Below are positions 41,265-44,118 of a stretch of 64,000 nt of DNA, in pieces (position 1 is the stretch's first letter; the number at the start of each line of letters is the position of its first letter). The notes below the pieces were generated by a model. That model saw nothing but the letters and a program-made list of their open reading frames with translations, did no database searches and was not told the DNA's origin. The stretch covers positions 32,001 to 96,000 of the forward strand of contig JBCCHT010000024.1 in NCBI GenBank assembly GCA_039028615.1. Reading direction: 5' to 3'. This DNA comes from Myxococcota bacterium (lineage in GTDB: Bacteria > Myxococcota_A > Polyangia > Nannocystales > Nannocystaceae). Both the position numbers and the translations under genes were made by a program.

Positions 41265-41319
41265 GGGCCGAGCCCCGGCCGCGAGCGGGTGCTCACGGCG
41301 GGACTCGGCCCGTTTCGTT
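41265..41319 (+). terminator. hairpin/terminator between convergent HEAT and RNA ligase genes
   Basis: Long imperfect stem GGGCCGAG...CTCGGCCC followed by GTTTCGTT. Confidence 0.6.
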
Positions 41320-41332
41320 CGGCCGTGGTGGC

Positions 41333-42688
41333 TCAGAGCCCCGCGACCTTGCCTCGGTACCAGCGCTGGCCGGCGTGGGCGACCGCCTTGGCGACGTTCT
41401 TCCACTCGAGGTTCGAGGCCTCCAGCTCCAGCACGGACTCCTTTTTGACGTCTCGGCCGAGCCACTTGAGGAAGTCCCCCATGCGCCGCATGTCGAACTC
41501 GCCCTCGCAGGCCTCGGTCACACCCTGCTCGAGGCGAGGGACGGTGACGAACTGGTCGACGAAGGCCGCGGTGGAGGCCGAGACCTGCGGATCGACCCGG
41601 ACGGCCTTGGACTGCTTATTGACCCGATGGGCCTCGCCCTTGGCCTTGAACATCAGCTCGAAGTACGCATCGCGCTCGGTGCTGCCTCGCTCGTCGAAGT
41701 CGACGCCGTCGATGGGGTACAGGACCACGCCCTCACCCACACCTTCGACCCCGAACTCGGCCTGCACCCACGGGTCGACCTGCTCCACGGCGGAGACCAT
41801 CTCGTTGATCTTCGCCGCGCCTCGCTCCAGCCCGCTGTCGGAGTGGAAGTCGAGAGAGACGGTCTCGCCGTGCCAGGGCAGGACCCGCACGTCGGGGTGC
41901 TCGGGGAGCATCGCACGGATGCGATCGGGGTCGACGACCAGGCGGGCGTCGGCCTCGTTGGGATCGCCGAGCACGATGGCGAACACGGCGAAGATCTTCC
42001 GTTCGATCGAGGTGATGGCTACTTTCTTCTGGATGCCGGGACCACACCACTCGCCGTAGACCAGCACGCGGCCGTGCCGTTCGAAGAGCCCACCGAAGAA
42101 CTCGGCGGCCGAGCCGTGGACCCAGGCCGCAAAGCCGTAGTTGTCCTTCTCGGGGGTGATGAGCCGGGTTCGGCTCTGGGCGACGACCTTGCCCTCGCCG
42201 AAGACCTGAACCCCGGCATTGGTGCCGTCGAGCTTGATCTTGGCGCGGTAGCCCAGGGTGGGCGCGATGATGGCTCCGGGATCGAGCCGCACCTGCATGC
42301 GCACCCCCTTGCGGACCGCGGGTAGGCCTTCGATGCTGGCCCACTTCGCCATCTTGGCGCCCTCGGGGCGCGCGGGCGCGGAGGGCAGGGGAACCTCGAT
42401 CTGGCCGTGCTCGGCGTTCAGGTCTGTGCCGATCTCGGCGTCGGTCGGGCCGACGATCATGCCGTGCGAGTCGAGACCTCGCAGCCGGGCCCGGCGAATC
42501 TTGGTGCCGTCGCGCAACGTGGCGCCCACGCGGGCGACGGCCAGGACATCGCCCGGTGCGTATTCGCCTTCCTGGTTGGCCACGACGACCAGACCCTCGA
42601 TTCCCGGGGCCTCGAACCGGAGCACCCGCAGGGTGTCGGCATTGGGATGATCGTCGATTCGGACGACCCGCATTGCAATGATGGACAT
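41333..42688 (-). CDS. Rnl2-type ATP-dependent RNA ligase with N-terminal tRNA-binding (PheT-B2/Trbp-like OB) domain
   Basis: N-terminus DHPNADTL...VARVGATL...IRRARLRGLDSHGM. Nucleotidyltransferase motifs I KLDGTN, Ia QSR, III YGEW, IIIa FAVF, IV EGVVL and V FKAK. AAAGGA RBS 9 nt before ATG. Confidence 0.88.
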   Translation of the reverse strand: MSIIAMRVVRIDDHPNADTLRVLRFEAPGIEGLVVVANQEGEYAPGDVLAVARVGATLRDGTKIRRARLRGLDSHGMIVGPTDAEIGTDLNAEHGQIEVPLPSAPARPEGAKMAKWASIEGLPAVRKGVRMQVRLDPGAIIAPTLGYRAKIKLDGTNAGVQVFGEGKVVAQSRTRLITPEKDNYGFAAWVHGSAAEFFGGLFERHGRVLVYGEWCGPGIQKKVAITSIERKIFAVFAIVLGDPNEADARLVVDPDRIRAMLPEHPDVRVLPWHGETVSLDFHSDSGLERGAAKINEMVSAVEQVDPWVQAEFGVEGVGEGVVLYPIDGVDFDERGSTERDAYFELMFKAKGEAHRVNKQSKAVRVDPQVSASTAAFVDQFVTVPRLEQGVTEACEGEFDMRRMGDFLKWLGRDVKKESVLELEASNLEWKNVAKAVAHAGQRWYRGKVAGL

Positions 42689-42735
42689 TGGAAACAGTCC
42701 TTTCTTCACTTCGCATTCGCCTCCGAAGGGGCGAC

Positions 42736-42770
42736 AAAAAAAAAGAGCCACCGGGTTTCCCTGGTGGCTC
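42736..42770 (-). terminator. intrinsic terminator in the RNA ligase leader (attenuator)
   Basis: Minus strand GAGCCACCAGG-GAAA-CCCGGTGGCTC followed by T9, ending 48 nt upstream of the ligase ATG and in the same orientation. Confidence 0.9.
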
Positions 42771-42824
42771 CACATGCCTCGAAACGGCCGAATTCGGTCA
42801 TTTACGAGTCAATGGGAGCCTCCA
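42762..42824 (-). promoter_or_regulatory. antiterminator hairpin, mutually exclusive with the leader terminator
   Basis: TGGAGGCTCCCAT (42824-42812) pairs with ATGTGGAGCCACCA (42775-42762, includes the terminator 5' arm). The inner stem CTCG/CGAG, AAA/TTT, CCG/CGG continues the helix. Confidence 0.75.
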
Positions 42825-42911
42825 CGGACATGGGTACATCGCACGACGTCCCTGGAGGGATGTCGAACGCGTGCGTCCTTGGGCGTAGGTCTTTTCCGAG
42901 CACGTCTTCAT
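42798..42911 (-). CDS. putative leader peptide (uORF, 37 aa MKTCSEKTYAQGRTRSTSLQGRRAMYPCPWRLPLTRK)
   Basis: First ATG after the predicted TSS; its last codons cover the antiterminator 5' arm. The RBS is weak and other short frames are possible. Confidence 0.45.
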   Translation of the reverse strand: MKTCSEKTYAQGRTRSTSLQGRRAMYPCPWRLPLTRK

Positions 42912-42931
42912 GACGAGACTTTCCGACCCAT

Positions 42932-42960
42932 CGGATAGCAGGCAGCATTGTGACTGTCAA
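42932..42960 (-). promoter_or_regulatory. sigma70-like promoter of the RNA ligase leader
   Basis: Perfect TTGACA, 17-nt spacer ending in TGc (extended -10), then TATCCG (imperfect -10). Confidence 0.6.
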
Positions 42961-42993
42961 ACGAATATTCTGGAGTCGGAGGGTAGGGCATCG

Positions 42994-44118
42994 ATGTCGA
43001 ACGCACCGTGGGTCGGGATCTGGAACAACGAAGCGCTCGGTATTCAGCTCTCGCTCGAGCTCGGCGGGACCTTCGGGTTCGTGGGGCCGACCGGATCGAG
43101 CACGGGTCGGTTCGAGGTGCGCGGCGATCAGCTGTGGTTTCAGGAAGCCAACGGCAACGTGCTGGCGTATCGCATCGCCAGGCTCGACGAGCAAACGATG
43201 GACTTGCTCGATGCGATGGGCACCATGCTGCACTACCGACGAAGCGCGGTGCCTTCGCTCGCGCGGGGGCAGGTGCTCGCCGAGGCGGGCGGGCTGCAGC
43301 TGACCGAAGGAGAGGTCGACGTCGGCCTCGATCTCGTTCGCTTGCTCATCGACACCGACCCTTCGGCGCAGGAACGCGAGGCGCTGACGCAGCACTCCGT
43401 CGACGACTTTCGGCAGCACCCGGCGGCGTTCCTCGAGCAGCTGCGGCAGATCGCGGCCAGCGTGCAGCAAGTCCGTGCGCTGCGAAACCCAACCGAGGTT
43501 GCCCTGGCTCGGCAGGCGATCTTCGCGAGCCTCTACGCTGCGGTCGAGCCGATGGAGCCCGCGACCCGCCCACCCTTGATGCAGGTGGTGCTGAGCCACG
43601 TGCAGGTGCGGGCCTTCGATCCGCGGACCCAGCTTCTGTGCACCAGCCGCGACTTGGCGGGCGCGGTGGCGCTGGCCGAGTTCGAGGCGATGCTGGCGGG
43701 GCGGCCCCTCGAGCTGACGCCGCAGCAACGCACCGAGATGGAGGCCGAGCTGGTCACCGCGTTCCAGACCGGCGGGCTCGAGGTGCAGCAGCGGCTGTGC
43801 GTGGCGGGGCCGATGTGGGCGATGACCGAGGCGAACTGGAGCCGCTTCGACGAAGCCCAGCGCGAGCAGCTGAGAGCTCAGTTCCGGGCGTCGTTCGGGG
43901 GTGGGGCGGCATACGCCGAAGTGCCGGGCGTGGAGGTGCCCGAGCCTGAGCCCGCGTCCGCCGAACCGCCGACGTCTGCCGTCGGTGATGCCTATGCGGC
44001 CCGCGTGAACGCAGAGACCTTTCGCATCATGCAGGAGATGTCACTTCAGCATCATGCGACCACGCTCAACATCATCGAGAACATGGGCGGCACGGGGAAC
44101 TACTGGGAAGTCGTGTGA
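42994..44118 (+). CDS. hypothetical protein (N-terminal beta domain, helical C-terminus)
   Basis: Long ORF with host-like codon usage and a GGAGGG upstream element; no recognised motif. Confidence 0.7.
   Translation: MSNAPWVGIWNNEALGIQLSLELGGTFGFVGPTGSSTGRFEVRGDQLWFQEANGNVLAYRIARLDEQTMDLLDAMGTMLHYRRSAVPSLARGQVLAEAGGLQLTEGEVDVGLDLVRLLIDTDPSAQEREALTQHSVDDFRQHPAAFLEQLRQIAASVQQVRALRNPTEVALARQAIFASLYAAVEPMEPATRPPLMQVVLSHVQVRAFDPRTQLLCTSRDLAGAVALAEFEAMLAGRPLELTPQQRTEMEAELVTAFQTGGLEVQQRLCVAGPMWAMTEANWSRFDEAQREQLRAQFRASFGGGAAYAEVPGVEVPEPEPASAEPPTSAVGDAYAARVNAETFRIMQEMSLQHHATTLNIIENMGGTGNYWEVV

What the first reader, a model, noticed from the sequence alone, without database searches (positions are those of the whole stretch)
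42689..42960. Ribosome-coupled transcription attenuator controlling an RNA ligase: candidate translation-stress-induced RNA repair switch
Seen on the minus strand, in order: (1) TTGACA-17-TATCCG with an extended -10 TG; (2) a 37-codon uORF at 42911-42798; (3) a ~63-nt imperfect hairpin at 42824-42762 whose 3' arm is the 5' arm of (4) a strong intrinsic terminator (8-bp stem, GAAA loop, U9; 42770-42736); (5) the RBS and ATG of the ligase. The two hairpins are mutually exclusive. The antiterminator 5' arm is made of the uORF's last codons (TGG AGG CTC CCA, W-R-L-P). Established: this layout matches ribosome-mediated attenuation as in whiB7/wblC, vmlR and Listeria hflXr/lmo0919. There, complete uORF translation masks the antiterminator and causes termination, while early stalling allows read-through. 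Inference: ligase expression is switched on when translation stalls (antibiotics, ribotoxin-cleaved tRNA or rRNA). I know of no such attenuator on an Rnl2-type ligase; the well-known RtcB repair system uses RtcR/sigma54 instead.
Basis: partly seen in the sequence, partly recalled or inferred. Interest (0 to 1): 0.9.

Follow-up and report, generated by a model that had tools for sequence, protein, structure and literature searches.

The report
Ribosome-sensing attenuator before tRNA-binding RNA ligase
The 300 bases in front of this myxobacterial RNA-ligase gene hold a promoter, a small reading frame, and two competing RNA hairpins, one of them a transcription stop signal; the layout recurs before the same gene in a dozen other bacteria and probably switches the repair enzyme on when ribosomes lag.

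Summary
On the minus strand lie, in order:
- a promoter (TTGACA, 17 nt, TGc-TATCCG);
- a 37-codon uORF (42911-42798);
- an antiterminator (42828-42758);
- a terminator (42770-42745, then U9);
- the ligase gene (42688-41333).

The same layout precedes full-length homologues of this tRNA_bind + RNA_ligase protein in 13 loci: 5 genomes of the family Nannocystaceae and 8 further metagenome contigs.

In all 13, the RNA folded without the terminator's 3' arm pairs the terminator's 5' arm with the last codons of the uORF. Shuffled leaders rarely do. The uORF always ends 21-38 nt before the terminator, while its stop codon varies (TGA, TAG, TAA). In 9 of 11 complete leaders its start sits 6-12 nt after the -10, so the uORF is nearly leaderless.

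The antiterminator is more stable than the terminator. The default is therefore read-through, and a ribosome at the uORF end is needed for termination. No Rfam family matches, and no expression data could be found.

The logic is that of whiB7 and of PA5471.1-armZ (an RtcB-like ligase), so this is a new member of a known kind, on an unrelated ligase family. Earlier notes of this scan reported similar leaders before rtcB in other genomes, not before this ligase.

The parts
42955..42960 (-). -35 hexamer TTGACA
   Evidence: Read. TTGACA occurs in 7 of 11 complete homologous leaders and TTGNNN in all 11; the spacer is 17 nt in 10 of 11.
42932..42940 (-). Extended -10: TG, one base, TATCCG
   Evidence: Read. 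TA starts the -10 in 11 of 11 leaders, and TG precedes it in 9 of 11. The simple scan does not call it.
42798..42911 (-). uORF, 37 codons plus TGA
   Evidence: Listed. Homologous leaders carry a uORF of 35-48 codons ending 21-38 nt before the terminator arm. The chance of such an end is 5-10% per leader.
42812..42828 (-). Antiterminator 5' arm, inside uORF codons 28-34
   Evidence: Fold of the RNA cut before the terminator's 3' arm: 15 pairs with 42775-42758. 0 of 200 shuffles match it.
42788..42797 (-). Small apical hairpin (palindrome around AATT) just after the uORF stop
   Evidence: Present in the folds. Its sequence is kept in the close relatives but not in the distant leaders.
42758..42775 (-). 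Antiterminator 3' arm, which contains the terminator's 5' arm
   Evidence: The two hairpins share 42770-42758 and so exclude each other.
42745..42770 (-). Terminator hairpin (outer stem 8 bp, inner G-C pairs, GAAA loop)
   Evidence: -18.6 kcal/mol alone. The AGCCACC / GGTGGCT core is invariant in 13 of 13 leaders. The same stem serves as an ordinary terminator elsewhere in the family.
42736..42744 (-). U tract, nine T
   Evidence: Read.
42698..42703 (-). Ribosome-binding site AAAGGA of the ligase gene
   Evidence: Read; it lies 9 nt before the ATG.
41333..42688 (-). Ligase gene, 451 aa: N-terminal tRNA-binding OB domain, nucleotidyltransferase domain, C-terminal helical domain
   Evidence: The lysine motif KLDGTN and the EG and KxK motifs are invariant in 25 homologues.

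Best explanation
This is a ribosome-dependent (leader-peptide) transcription attenuator that gates a monocistronic RNA-ligase gene.

Transcription starts a few bases after the extended -10. The first thing on the RNA is a 37-codon uORF. The last codons of the uORF form the 5' arm of a long hairpin (the antiterminator). The 3' arm of that hairpin contains the 5' arm of an intrinsic terminator.

The antiterminator is made first and is about twice as stable as the terminator. A naked transcript therefore reads through into the ligase gene.

When the leading ribosome keeps pace and reaches the end of the uORF, it covers the antiterminator's 5' arm. The terminator then folds, and the transcript ends at the U tract near 42736. 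The stop codon lies 21-38 nt before the terminator arm in the 11 complete leaders, so a terminating ribosome masks the antiterminator arm but not the terminator.

Anything that makes the leader ribosome late or stalls it early leaves the antiterminator intact and turns the ligase on. Examples are translation inhibitors and depleted or cleaved tRNAs.

Shown by computation: the anatomy, its conservation, the competing pairings and their energies. Inferred: that the uORF is translated, where the transcript starts and ends, and which stress induces read-through.
For: 1. Anatomy in the window.

2. The same order of parts occurs before full-length homologues of the ligase in 13 loci. These are the window, L002, L003, L004, L068, L069, L070, L074 (L075 is identical), L076, L078, L079, L094 and L098. 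In the genome set of the order, 5 of 73 genomes carry it. All four Nannocystaceae genomes that the protein search found to hold a full-length ligase (the window's genome included) carry it; the fifth, G062, was found by the DNA pattern and carries ligase and leader side by side.

3. Folding the RNA without the terminator's 3' arm pairs the terminator's 5' arm with a segment in the 36 nt before the uORF stop in 13 of 13 leaders; two of them are cut by contig ends. For the seven core bases of that arm, 8 of 11 complete leaders have 6 or 7 paired in this way. Dinucleotide shuffles reach the observed value in 0-21 of 200, and in at most 2 of 200 for six leaders.

4. The arms change together. Distant leaders pair differently shifted or extended segments that match their own terminator flanks (L074, L078, L098, L070). 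A short-form ligase leader, L040, has an unrelated terminator sequence and still shows 8 of 9 arm bases paired to its uORF end.

5. Energies. The antiterminator alone is -23.0 to -37.9 kcal/mol, and the terminator alone is -16.9 to -20.2 kcal/mol. The full-length minimum-energy fold keeps the antiterminator in 3 of 11 leaders.

6. Signs that the uORF is read.
- In each leader its start is the first start codon after the expected transcript start, 6-12 nt after the -10 in 9 of 11.
- Its length is 35-48 codons.
- The stop position is kept while the stop codon varies: TGA 6, TAG 3, TAA 2 among the 11 complete leaders.
- Per leader, 5.1-9.6% of shuffles place the first in-frame stop in the same 26-nt window. 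The product over 7 lineage groups is 1.7e-8.
- In the close pair L078/L079, 8 of 13 differing codons are synonymous, and the stop changes from TAA to TGA.

7. No Rfam family reaches its threshold in the window or in 10 homologous loci.

8. The element is single-copy in this 12.3-Mb genome. Its neighbours are not conserved, so ligase plus leader form a self-contained unit.

9. Published precedent for the logic.
- whiB7: efficient uORF translation gives termination, and knock-down of tRNAs or tRNA synthetases activates it (passages of PMC10274678).
- PA5471.1-armZ (passages of PMC12057347; abstract of PMC13041342).
Against: - No transcript start, 3' end or expression data exist. No RNA run was listed.
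- The -10 lacks the usual final T, and the tool's promoter scan finds nothing here.
- The seven-base core of the terminator stem is invariant in all 13 leaders, so it offers no covariation. The same stem is a common ordinary terminator in this family: 15 of 21 pattern hits in 73 genomes are not next to the ligase.
- In 5 of 13 leaders (L003, L004, L068, L076, L094) the U tract is broken by C and G. Termination there may be weak.
- The middle of the peptide is not conserved, and its composition is what random GC-rich DNA would give.
- Open frames are common at this GC content. The stop window used was chosen after seeing the data, and the lineages are not fully independent.
- The window's uORF crosses the antiterminator arm in a different frame from its relatives.
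- Pairing with the seven core bases is only 3-4 of 7 in L002, L069 and L074; their helices lean on flanking bases.
- Several close homologues lack the leader. L066 and L067 have a similar promoter directly before the ligase start, and L167 and L168 have no leader terminator.
Confidence: 0.74

Rival explanations
1. The two competing hairpins are real, but a trans-acting factor sets the switch, not the ribosome. Candidates are the ligase itself through its tRNA-binding domain (feedback), a tRNA or tRNA fragment, or a small molecule. The open frame would be incidental.
For: - The terminator core is invariant across leaders whose ligases are only 45-66% identical. That could mean a sequence-specific binding site.
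- The ligase carries a tRNA-binding OB domain.
- The peptide is poorly conserved.
Against: - The invariant stem is also an ordinary terminator after other genes in the family.
- No sequence block conserved across all leaders exists outside the arms, so there is no candidate aptamer.
- The start codon keeps its place near the -10. The frame is kept through length changes, and the stop position is kept with changing stop codons. An incidental frame would not explain these.
- No Rfam riboswitch or T-box match was found.
Confidence: 0.12
2. The leader is a constitutive partial terminator, or a separate small gene or small RNA with its own terminator. It merely keeps ligase transcription low, or it makes a roughly 190-nt RNA or 37-aa peptide with its own job. 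There is no regulated switch.
For: - A promoter, an ORF and a strong terminator are what an independent small gene looks like.
- Attenuator-derived RNAs and leader peptides can act in trans in Sinorhizobium (abstracts of PMC7298713 and PMC7968998 in the listing).
Against: - An independent small gene needs no antiterminator, yet the pairing between the uORF end and the terminator arm is kept and co-varies in 13 leaders.
- The peptide is not conserved.
- Only 19-96 nt separate the terminator from the ligase start, and no second conserved promoter is seen there by eye.
Confidence: 0.1
3. It is a classical amino-acid attenuator (trp/his/leu type) that senses one amino acid through a run of regulatory codons and an anti-antiterminator.
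For: In the window, the full-length fold pairs an upstream uORF segment (codons about 18-22) with the antiterminator's 5' arm. This gives a 1:2 / 2:3 / 3:4 picture.
Against: - No shared run of any codon occurs upstream of the arm in the 11 uORFs.
- The 1:2 pairing is not seen consistently in the other leaders.
- The gated gene is an RNA ligase, not a biosynthetic operon.
Confidence: 0.03

Closest known systems
whiB7 / wblC uORF attenuator of mycobacteria and Streptomyces
   Same: A promoter-proximal uORF of a few dozen codons with a poorly conserved peptide is followed by an intrinsic terminator and a competing antiterminator. Efficient uORF translation gives termination, and impaired translation gives read-through. 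Knock-down of tRNAs and tRNA synthetases activates it (passages of PMC10274678).
   Different: The phylum is different, there is no sequence relation, and the gated gene is an enzyme rather than a transcription factor with positive feedback. No enrichment of one amino acid such as alanine is seen here.
PA5471.1 leader peptide - armZ (PA5471, RtcB-like ligase) of Pseudomonas aeruginosa
   Same: A leader peptide followed by terminators gates an RNA-ligase-family gene. It is induced by ribosome-targeting drugs and, in a cca mutant, by defective tRNA 3' ends through ribosome stalling on the leader (passages of PMC12057347; abstract of PMC13041342).
   Different: The ligase there belongs to the GTP-dependent RtcB family and also acts as an anti-repressor. 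Here it is an ATP-type nucleotidyltransferase ligase (Pfam RNA_ligase) with a tRNA-binding domain. The leaders share no sequence, and the mechanism in Pseudomonas is itself described as still needing confirmation.
Leaderless short-ORF attenuators of mycobacteria
   Same: The uORF begins at or next to the transcript start and controls downstream genes (abstract of bioRxiv 10.1101/834739 in the listing).
   Different: Those sense cysteine through poly-Cys codons. No codon run is shared here, and the transcript start here is predicted, not mapped.
E. coli trp operon leader (trpL)
   Same: The alternative hairpins are 2:3 (antiterminator) and 3:4 (terminator). A ribosome at the leader stop codon masks segment 2 (recalled textbook knowledge, from no call).
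   Different: There are no regulatory codon run and no conserved 1:2 anti-antiterminator. Lack of translation should therefore give read-through here rather than super-attenuation.
RtcR / sigma-54 control of rtcBA
   Same: The purpose is the same: to raise an RNA-repair ligase when translation components are damaged (recalled).
   Different: That system uses a protein activator and a sigma-54 promoter. This leader has a sigma-70-type promoter and no activator gene next to it. Two of this genome's own rtcB copies have sigma-54-like -24/-12 motifs by eye.

Membership tests
Ribosome-dependent (leader-peptide) transcription attenuators | Small ORF between the promoter and the regulated gene, with a usable start codon | tested here: met
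   37-codon ATG uORF. Homologous uORFs of 35-48 codons occur in 11 of 11 complete leaders, starting 6-20 nt after the -10.
Ribosome-dependent (leader-peptide) transcription attenuators | Intrinsic terminator between the uORF and the gene | tested here: met
   Hairpin of -18.6 kcal/mol followed by U9. It is present in 13 of 13 leaders, with an interrupted U tract in 5.
Ribosome-dependent (leader-peptide) transcription attenuators | Antiterminator that excludes the terminator and overlaps the uORF, so that ribosome position decides the fold | tested here: met
   The 5' arm lies in the last 36 nt of the uORF in every leader.
Ribosome-dependent (leader-peptide) transcription attenuators | The uORF is translated, and its translation changes termination | not testable with these tools
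   There is only indirect support: kept frame and stop position, and 8 synonymous of 13 differing codons in one close pair. No RNA runs were listed.
Amino-acid biosynthesis attenuators (trp, his, leu type) | Run of codons for the sensed amino acid in the leader peptide | tested here: not met
   No shared codon run was found in the 11 peptides.
Known cis-regulatory RNA families (riboswitches, T-box, Rfam leaders) | Match to an Rfam covariance model at its gathering score | tested here: not met
   The best hit is BjrC68 at 24.1 bits against 39, a generic two-hairpin plus U-tract match. There were 0 hits in 10 homologous loci.
Rnl2-family RNA ligase (NCBIfam TIGR02307) | Score above the curated cut-off | tested here: not met
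   21.2 bits against a cut-off of 197.15.
ATP-dependent RNA ligases of the covalent nucleotidyltransferase superfamily (Pfam PF09414) | Domain match above the cut-off, catalytic lysine motif and ligase fold | tested here: met
   - PF09414 scores 48.2 bits against 27.
- The lysine, EG and KxK motifs are invariant in 25 homologues.
- The model has pLDDT 89.6.
- Best Foldseek matches are Naegleria gruberi RNA ligase (E 3e-12) and T4 Rnl2 (E 1e-10).

The most novel reading that the evidence does not exclude
The ribosome itself is the damage sensor of a closed repair loop. When tRNAs are cleaved or depleted, for example by anticodon nucleases of competitors, the ribosome on the near-leaderless uORF falls behind RNA polymerase. 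The default antiterminator then stands, and the tRNA-binding ligase is made. Repaired tRNAs restore translation and re-arm the terminator.

In 7 of 13 leaders the uORF ends in two or three prolines close to its stop codon (directly followed by one or two residues and the stop in 6 of them). The proline codons are the antiterminator arm itself. Such an ending could act as a built-in brake that parks the terminating ribosome on the arm long enough for the terminator to be transcribed.

Cyanobacterial homologues of the same ligase sit inside tRNA gene arrays. In Anabaena, arrays of that kind are switched on by translational stress through a different, promoter-based mechanism (PMC8421152). Two unrelated control devices would then wire one ligase family to the same signal.
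Probability: 0.3. Interest if true: 0.75.

Novelty: new member of a known kind. Interest (0 to 1): 0.6.

Why it matters
Very little is known about how bacteria decide to make RNA-repair enzymes. The textbook case is RtcR/sigma-54 for rtcBA.

Here a second, unrelated ligase family is gated by a leader that reads ribosome progress. The family is an ATP-type ligase fused to a tRNA-binding domain, and its cellular role is unknown. The leader follows the same logic as the one known for the RtcB-like ArmZ of Pseudomonas.

Unrelated ligases converge on ribosome-sensing control, and cyanobacterial homologues are placed inside tRNA arrays. Together these points argue that the enzyme repairs tRNAs. They also give a direct, testable handle on when it is used.

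A cultured relative, Paraliomyxa miuraensis SMH-27-4, carries the leader, so the prediction can be tested.

Tried and rejected
- **RNA-seq evidence.** No RNA holder was listed for 41300-43100, so no reads were laid.
- **Simple scans.** The promoter and terminator scan did not flag the elements. The reason lies in its rules, not in the sequence.
- **Rfam.** Only sub-threshold generic hits appeared, with BjrC68 at 24 bits.
- **Repeated element or regulon.** The leader is single-copy in the genome. A pattern search of 73 genomes of the order found the leader only next to the ligase. The other hits are ordinary terminators. At least four of them follow what read by eye as tRNA 3' ends, and several are bidirectional.
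- **Conserved neighbours.** There are none. The divergent gene (start 42994) and the convergent gene have no homologues in any other locus.
- **Formal covariation counting.** A MAFFT alignment was judged uninformative. The arm core is invariant, and MAFFT misaligns the 5' arms of the distant leaders. Per-leader folds with shuffles were used instead. No covariance model was built.
- **Other ligase loci with upstream terminators** (20 of 50 loci with at least 250 nt upstream).
  - L101 is the terminator of an upstream gene.
  - L043 and L171 show no clear antiterminator.
  - L033 gave an antiterminator in one folding window but not in another, so it is left open.
- **Anti-antiterminator (1:2 pairing).** It is seen in the window only and is not conserved.
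- **The genome's rtcB copies** (6 family matches at 5 places): no similar leader was found.
- **Wider sampling.** 8 of 301 genomes of the phylum hold the ligase at E <= 1e-30. The new full-length loci L167 and L168 have no leader terminator by eye. The first attempt at this search returned a machine error.
- **Literature.** Four of the five full-text searches were aimed at such a leader and found none described on an Rnl2/Rnl5-type or tRNA-binding ligase; the fifth looked up the PA5471.1-armZ precedent. The library holds open-access papers only.

Full report
**What is in the window**

Read on the minus strand, the 305-nt gap between the divergent gene and the ligase gene is filled almost completely by one ordered set of signals. 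The divergent gene starts at ATG 42994 and is preceded by GGAGGG. The ligase gene starts at ATG 42688. The signals are:
- TTGACA (42960-42955), a 17-nt spacer, TG (42940-42939) and TATCCG (42937-42932);
- a 37-codon ORF from ATG 42911 to TGA 42800-42798;
- a long imperfect hairpin;
- a terminator hairpin (42770-42745) with nine T (42744-42736);
- the ligase RBS (42703-42698), 47 nt after the terminator.

The tool's consensus scans did not flag the promoter or the terminator. Their rules demand a T at the end of the -10 and a loop of 3-8. The 251-nt leader folds better than 199 of 200 shuffles, with z = -2.82.

**The gene behind it**

The 451-aa product has an N-terminal tRNA-binding OB domain. 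Pfam tRNA_bind scores 24.5 bits, just under its cut-off of 27, and the best sequence matches in the PDB are the B2 domain of PheRS beta. It also has a Pfam RNA_ligase domain at 48 bits.

A model built on 25 homologues has pLDDT 89.6. Its best fold matches are the Naegleria gruberi RNA ligase (Rnl5, which also has an N-terminal OB domain) and T4 Rnl2. The catalytic lysine motif and the later nucleotidyltransferase motifs are invariant.

It fails the NCBIfam Rnl2 model, with 21 bits against a cut-off of 197. 'Rnl2-type' is therefore only approximately right.

The gene stands alone. The next gene downstream converges on it, and neither neighbour recurs in any other locus.

**The leader is conserved**

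The protein search covered 60 relatives. Full-length orthologues exist in 3 of the 5 other genomes of the genus, and all three have the leader. One of them (L004) is cut by a contig end 144 nt upstream. The search found full-length orthologues in no other genus of the family.

Scans of species genomes and metagenome contigs with an alignment of the four proteins gave 35 and 80 loci. Of 26 metagenome loci encoding the N-terminus of the full-length form, 10 carry the leader. L074 and L075 are identical. A pattern search of the 73 genomes of the order added one more genome, G062, whose terminator motif is identical to that of L069.

This gives 13 distinct leaders, 11 of them complete. The element is single-copy in the window's 12.3-Mb genome.

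**Promoter and uORF**

- The -35 is TTGACA in 7 of 11 leaders and TTGNNN in all.
- The spacer is 17 nt in 10 of 11.
- The -10 begins with TA in all, with TG before it in 9.
- The uORF start codon lies 6-12 nt after the -10 in 9 of 11 leaders. The uORF is therefore leaderless or nearly so. The distance is 18 nt in L002 and 20 nt in the window.
- The uORFs are 35-48 codons long.
- They always stop 21-38 nt before the terminator's 5' arm.
- Their stop codons vary: TGA in 6, TAG in 3 and TAA in 2.

At this GC content open frames are common. In shuffles, the first in-frame stop falls in the same 26-nt window in only 5.1-9.6% of cases per leader. Taking the largest value in each of 7 lineage groups gives a product of 1.7e-8. 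The window was chosen after seeing the data, and the lineages are related, so this figure is indicative only.

The peptide is conserved only at its ends. The start reads MS(T/L/I)... in five leaders. In the close pair L078/L079, 8 of 13 differing codons are synonymous, and the stop changes from TAA to TGA.

**The two hairpins**

When each RNA is folded up to, but not including, the terminator's 3' arm, the terminator's 5' arm pairs with a segment in the 36 nt before the uORF stop. This holds in 13 of 13 leaders. In the window that makes 15 pairs, between 42828-42812 and 42775-42758.

For the seven core bases of the arm:
- 8 of 11 complete leaders have 6 or 7 paired in this way;
- dinucleotide shuffles of the upstream part reach the observed value in 0-2 of 200 for six leaders and in 6-21 of 200 for the other five.

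The core of the terminator stem (AGCCACC / GGTGGCT) is invariant and therefore cannot co-vary. The flanks do change together.
- L074 has lost one base on both sides of the pairing.
- L078, L079, L098 and L070 pair extended segments that match their own inner terminator stems.
- L040 is a short-form ligase leader with a wholly different terminator sequence, yet it shows the same arrangement, with 8 of 9 arm bases paired to the uORF end.

The invariant stem is also used as an ordinary terminator elsewhere in Nannocystaceae. Of 21 pattern hits, 15 are not next to the ligase, against 6 hits of the reversed control pattern. This argues that the stem really terminates transcription. It also argues against a special binding role for it.

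**Which state is the default**

The antiterminator hairpin alone has -23.0 to -37.9 kcal/mol, and the terminator alone has -16.9 to -20.2 kcal/mol. In 3 of 11 leaders even the complete RNA prefers the antiterminator.

Because the antiterminator is also transcribed first, an untranslated transcript should read through. Termination needs something to hold the 5' arm, and that arm lies inside the last codons of the uORF. A ribosome at the stop codon would cover the arm but would not reach the terminator, which begins 21-38 nt further on.

This is the logic described for whiB7 (passages of PMC10274678). It is not the trp logic. No conserved anti-antiterminator and no codon run were found.

**A speculative detail**

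In 7 of 13 leaders the uORF ends with two or three prolines close to the stop; in 6 of them only one or two residues separate the prolines from it. The proline codons are the antiterminator arm read in that frame.

This may be a by-product of the RNA constraint, or it may slow termination and park the ribosome on the arm. The window's own uORF crosses the arm in another frame and lacks the motif, so the motif cannot be essential.

**What is known**

No Rfam family matches.

Of five full-text searches, four looked for such a leader on this kind of ligase and found none; the fifth followed up the PA5471.1-armZ lead. However, notes of this scan on other genomes pointed to the PA5471.1 leader peptide of Pseudomonas aeruginosa. 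I checked this in print.
- ArmZ is listed as an RtcB-like RNA ligase whose expression is controlled by PA5471.1 through transcription attenuation upon ribosome stalling. The mechanism is said to need further confirmation (passages of PMC12057347).
- Loss of the tRNA CCA-adding enzyme raises armZ through that leader (abstract of PMC13041342).

The idea of an RNA-repair-type ligase wired to ribosome stalling is therefore not new. What is new is its independent appearance on an unrelated ligase family in Myxococcota.

**A second line pointing to tRNA and translation stress**

Cyanobacterial homologues of the ligase lie inside tRNA gene arrays. Within about 4 kb there are 12, 9, 8, 5, 3, 3 and 3 tRNA genes in L084, L077, L072, L108, L035, L073 and L034.

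In Anabaena, long tRNA arrays are silent and are induced by translation inhibitors, together with rtcB (PMC8421152: passages, section 22). That paper lists Acaryochloris marina MBIC11017, the source of L034, among the array carriers. I could not see its figure to confirm that this ligase is one of the embedded genes.

**Verdict**

The physiological trigger and the very existence of the short transcript remain untested.

It is a new member of a known kind of switch. Interest is moderate to high, because it gives an uncharacterised tRNA-binding ligase family a testable regulatory context.

Noticed in passing
L084, L077, L072, L108, L035, L073, L034 (whole loci): Cyanobacterial full-length homologues of the ligase sit inside tRNA gene arrays, with 12, 9, 8, 5, 3, 3 and 3 tRNA genes within about 4 kb. 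In L035, ARAGORN calls one tRNA with anticodon CTA as tRNA-Pyl, that is, a possible amber suppressor.
   Followed up: partly
L066:1441-1512 and L067:1441-1512: Two close ligase homologues (56% and 54% identical) have no leader. A promoter of the same type (TTG..., about 17 nt, TGCTA/TGCTC) ends 6-10 nt before the ligase start codon, which suggests a leaderless ligase mRNA.
   Followed up: no
window 42717-42734, minus strand: A small hairpin lies between the terminator and the ligase RBS. L002 keeps it with a longer stem, but the other leaders lack it. Its role is unknown.
   Followed up: no
loci L147, L149, L160, L163 and others: The stem AGCCACC-loop-GGTGGCT followed by a T tract is a recurrent ordinary terminator in Nannocystaceae. 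It often has an A tract on the other side, which makes it bidirectional. At least four copies follow what read by eye as tRNA 3' ends.
   Followed up: partly
G000 contigs C4, C16, C8, C28, C25 (loci L174-L177): The genome has RtcB-family matches at five places. Two of them (C16 and C25) are preceded by sigma-54-like -24/-12 motifs (TGGC..., 8 nt, TGCT) by eye. None has a leader like the one studied here.
   Followed up: partly
window 42994-44118, plus strand: The divergent neighbour is a 374-aa protein with no Pfam match and no homologue in any fetched locus. Its start lies only 34 nt from the leader's -35.
   Followed up: no
L036 / L169 (Polyangiales), about 100-190 nt upstream of the ligase start: A palindrome of about 90 nt flanked by T and A tracts (a bidirectional terminator) lies before a ligase gene that appears interrupted: tblastn gives two pieces, and the open frame is 349 aa.
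   Followed up: no
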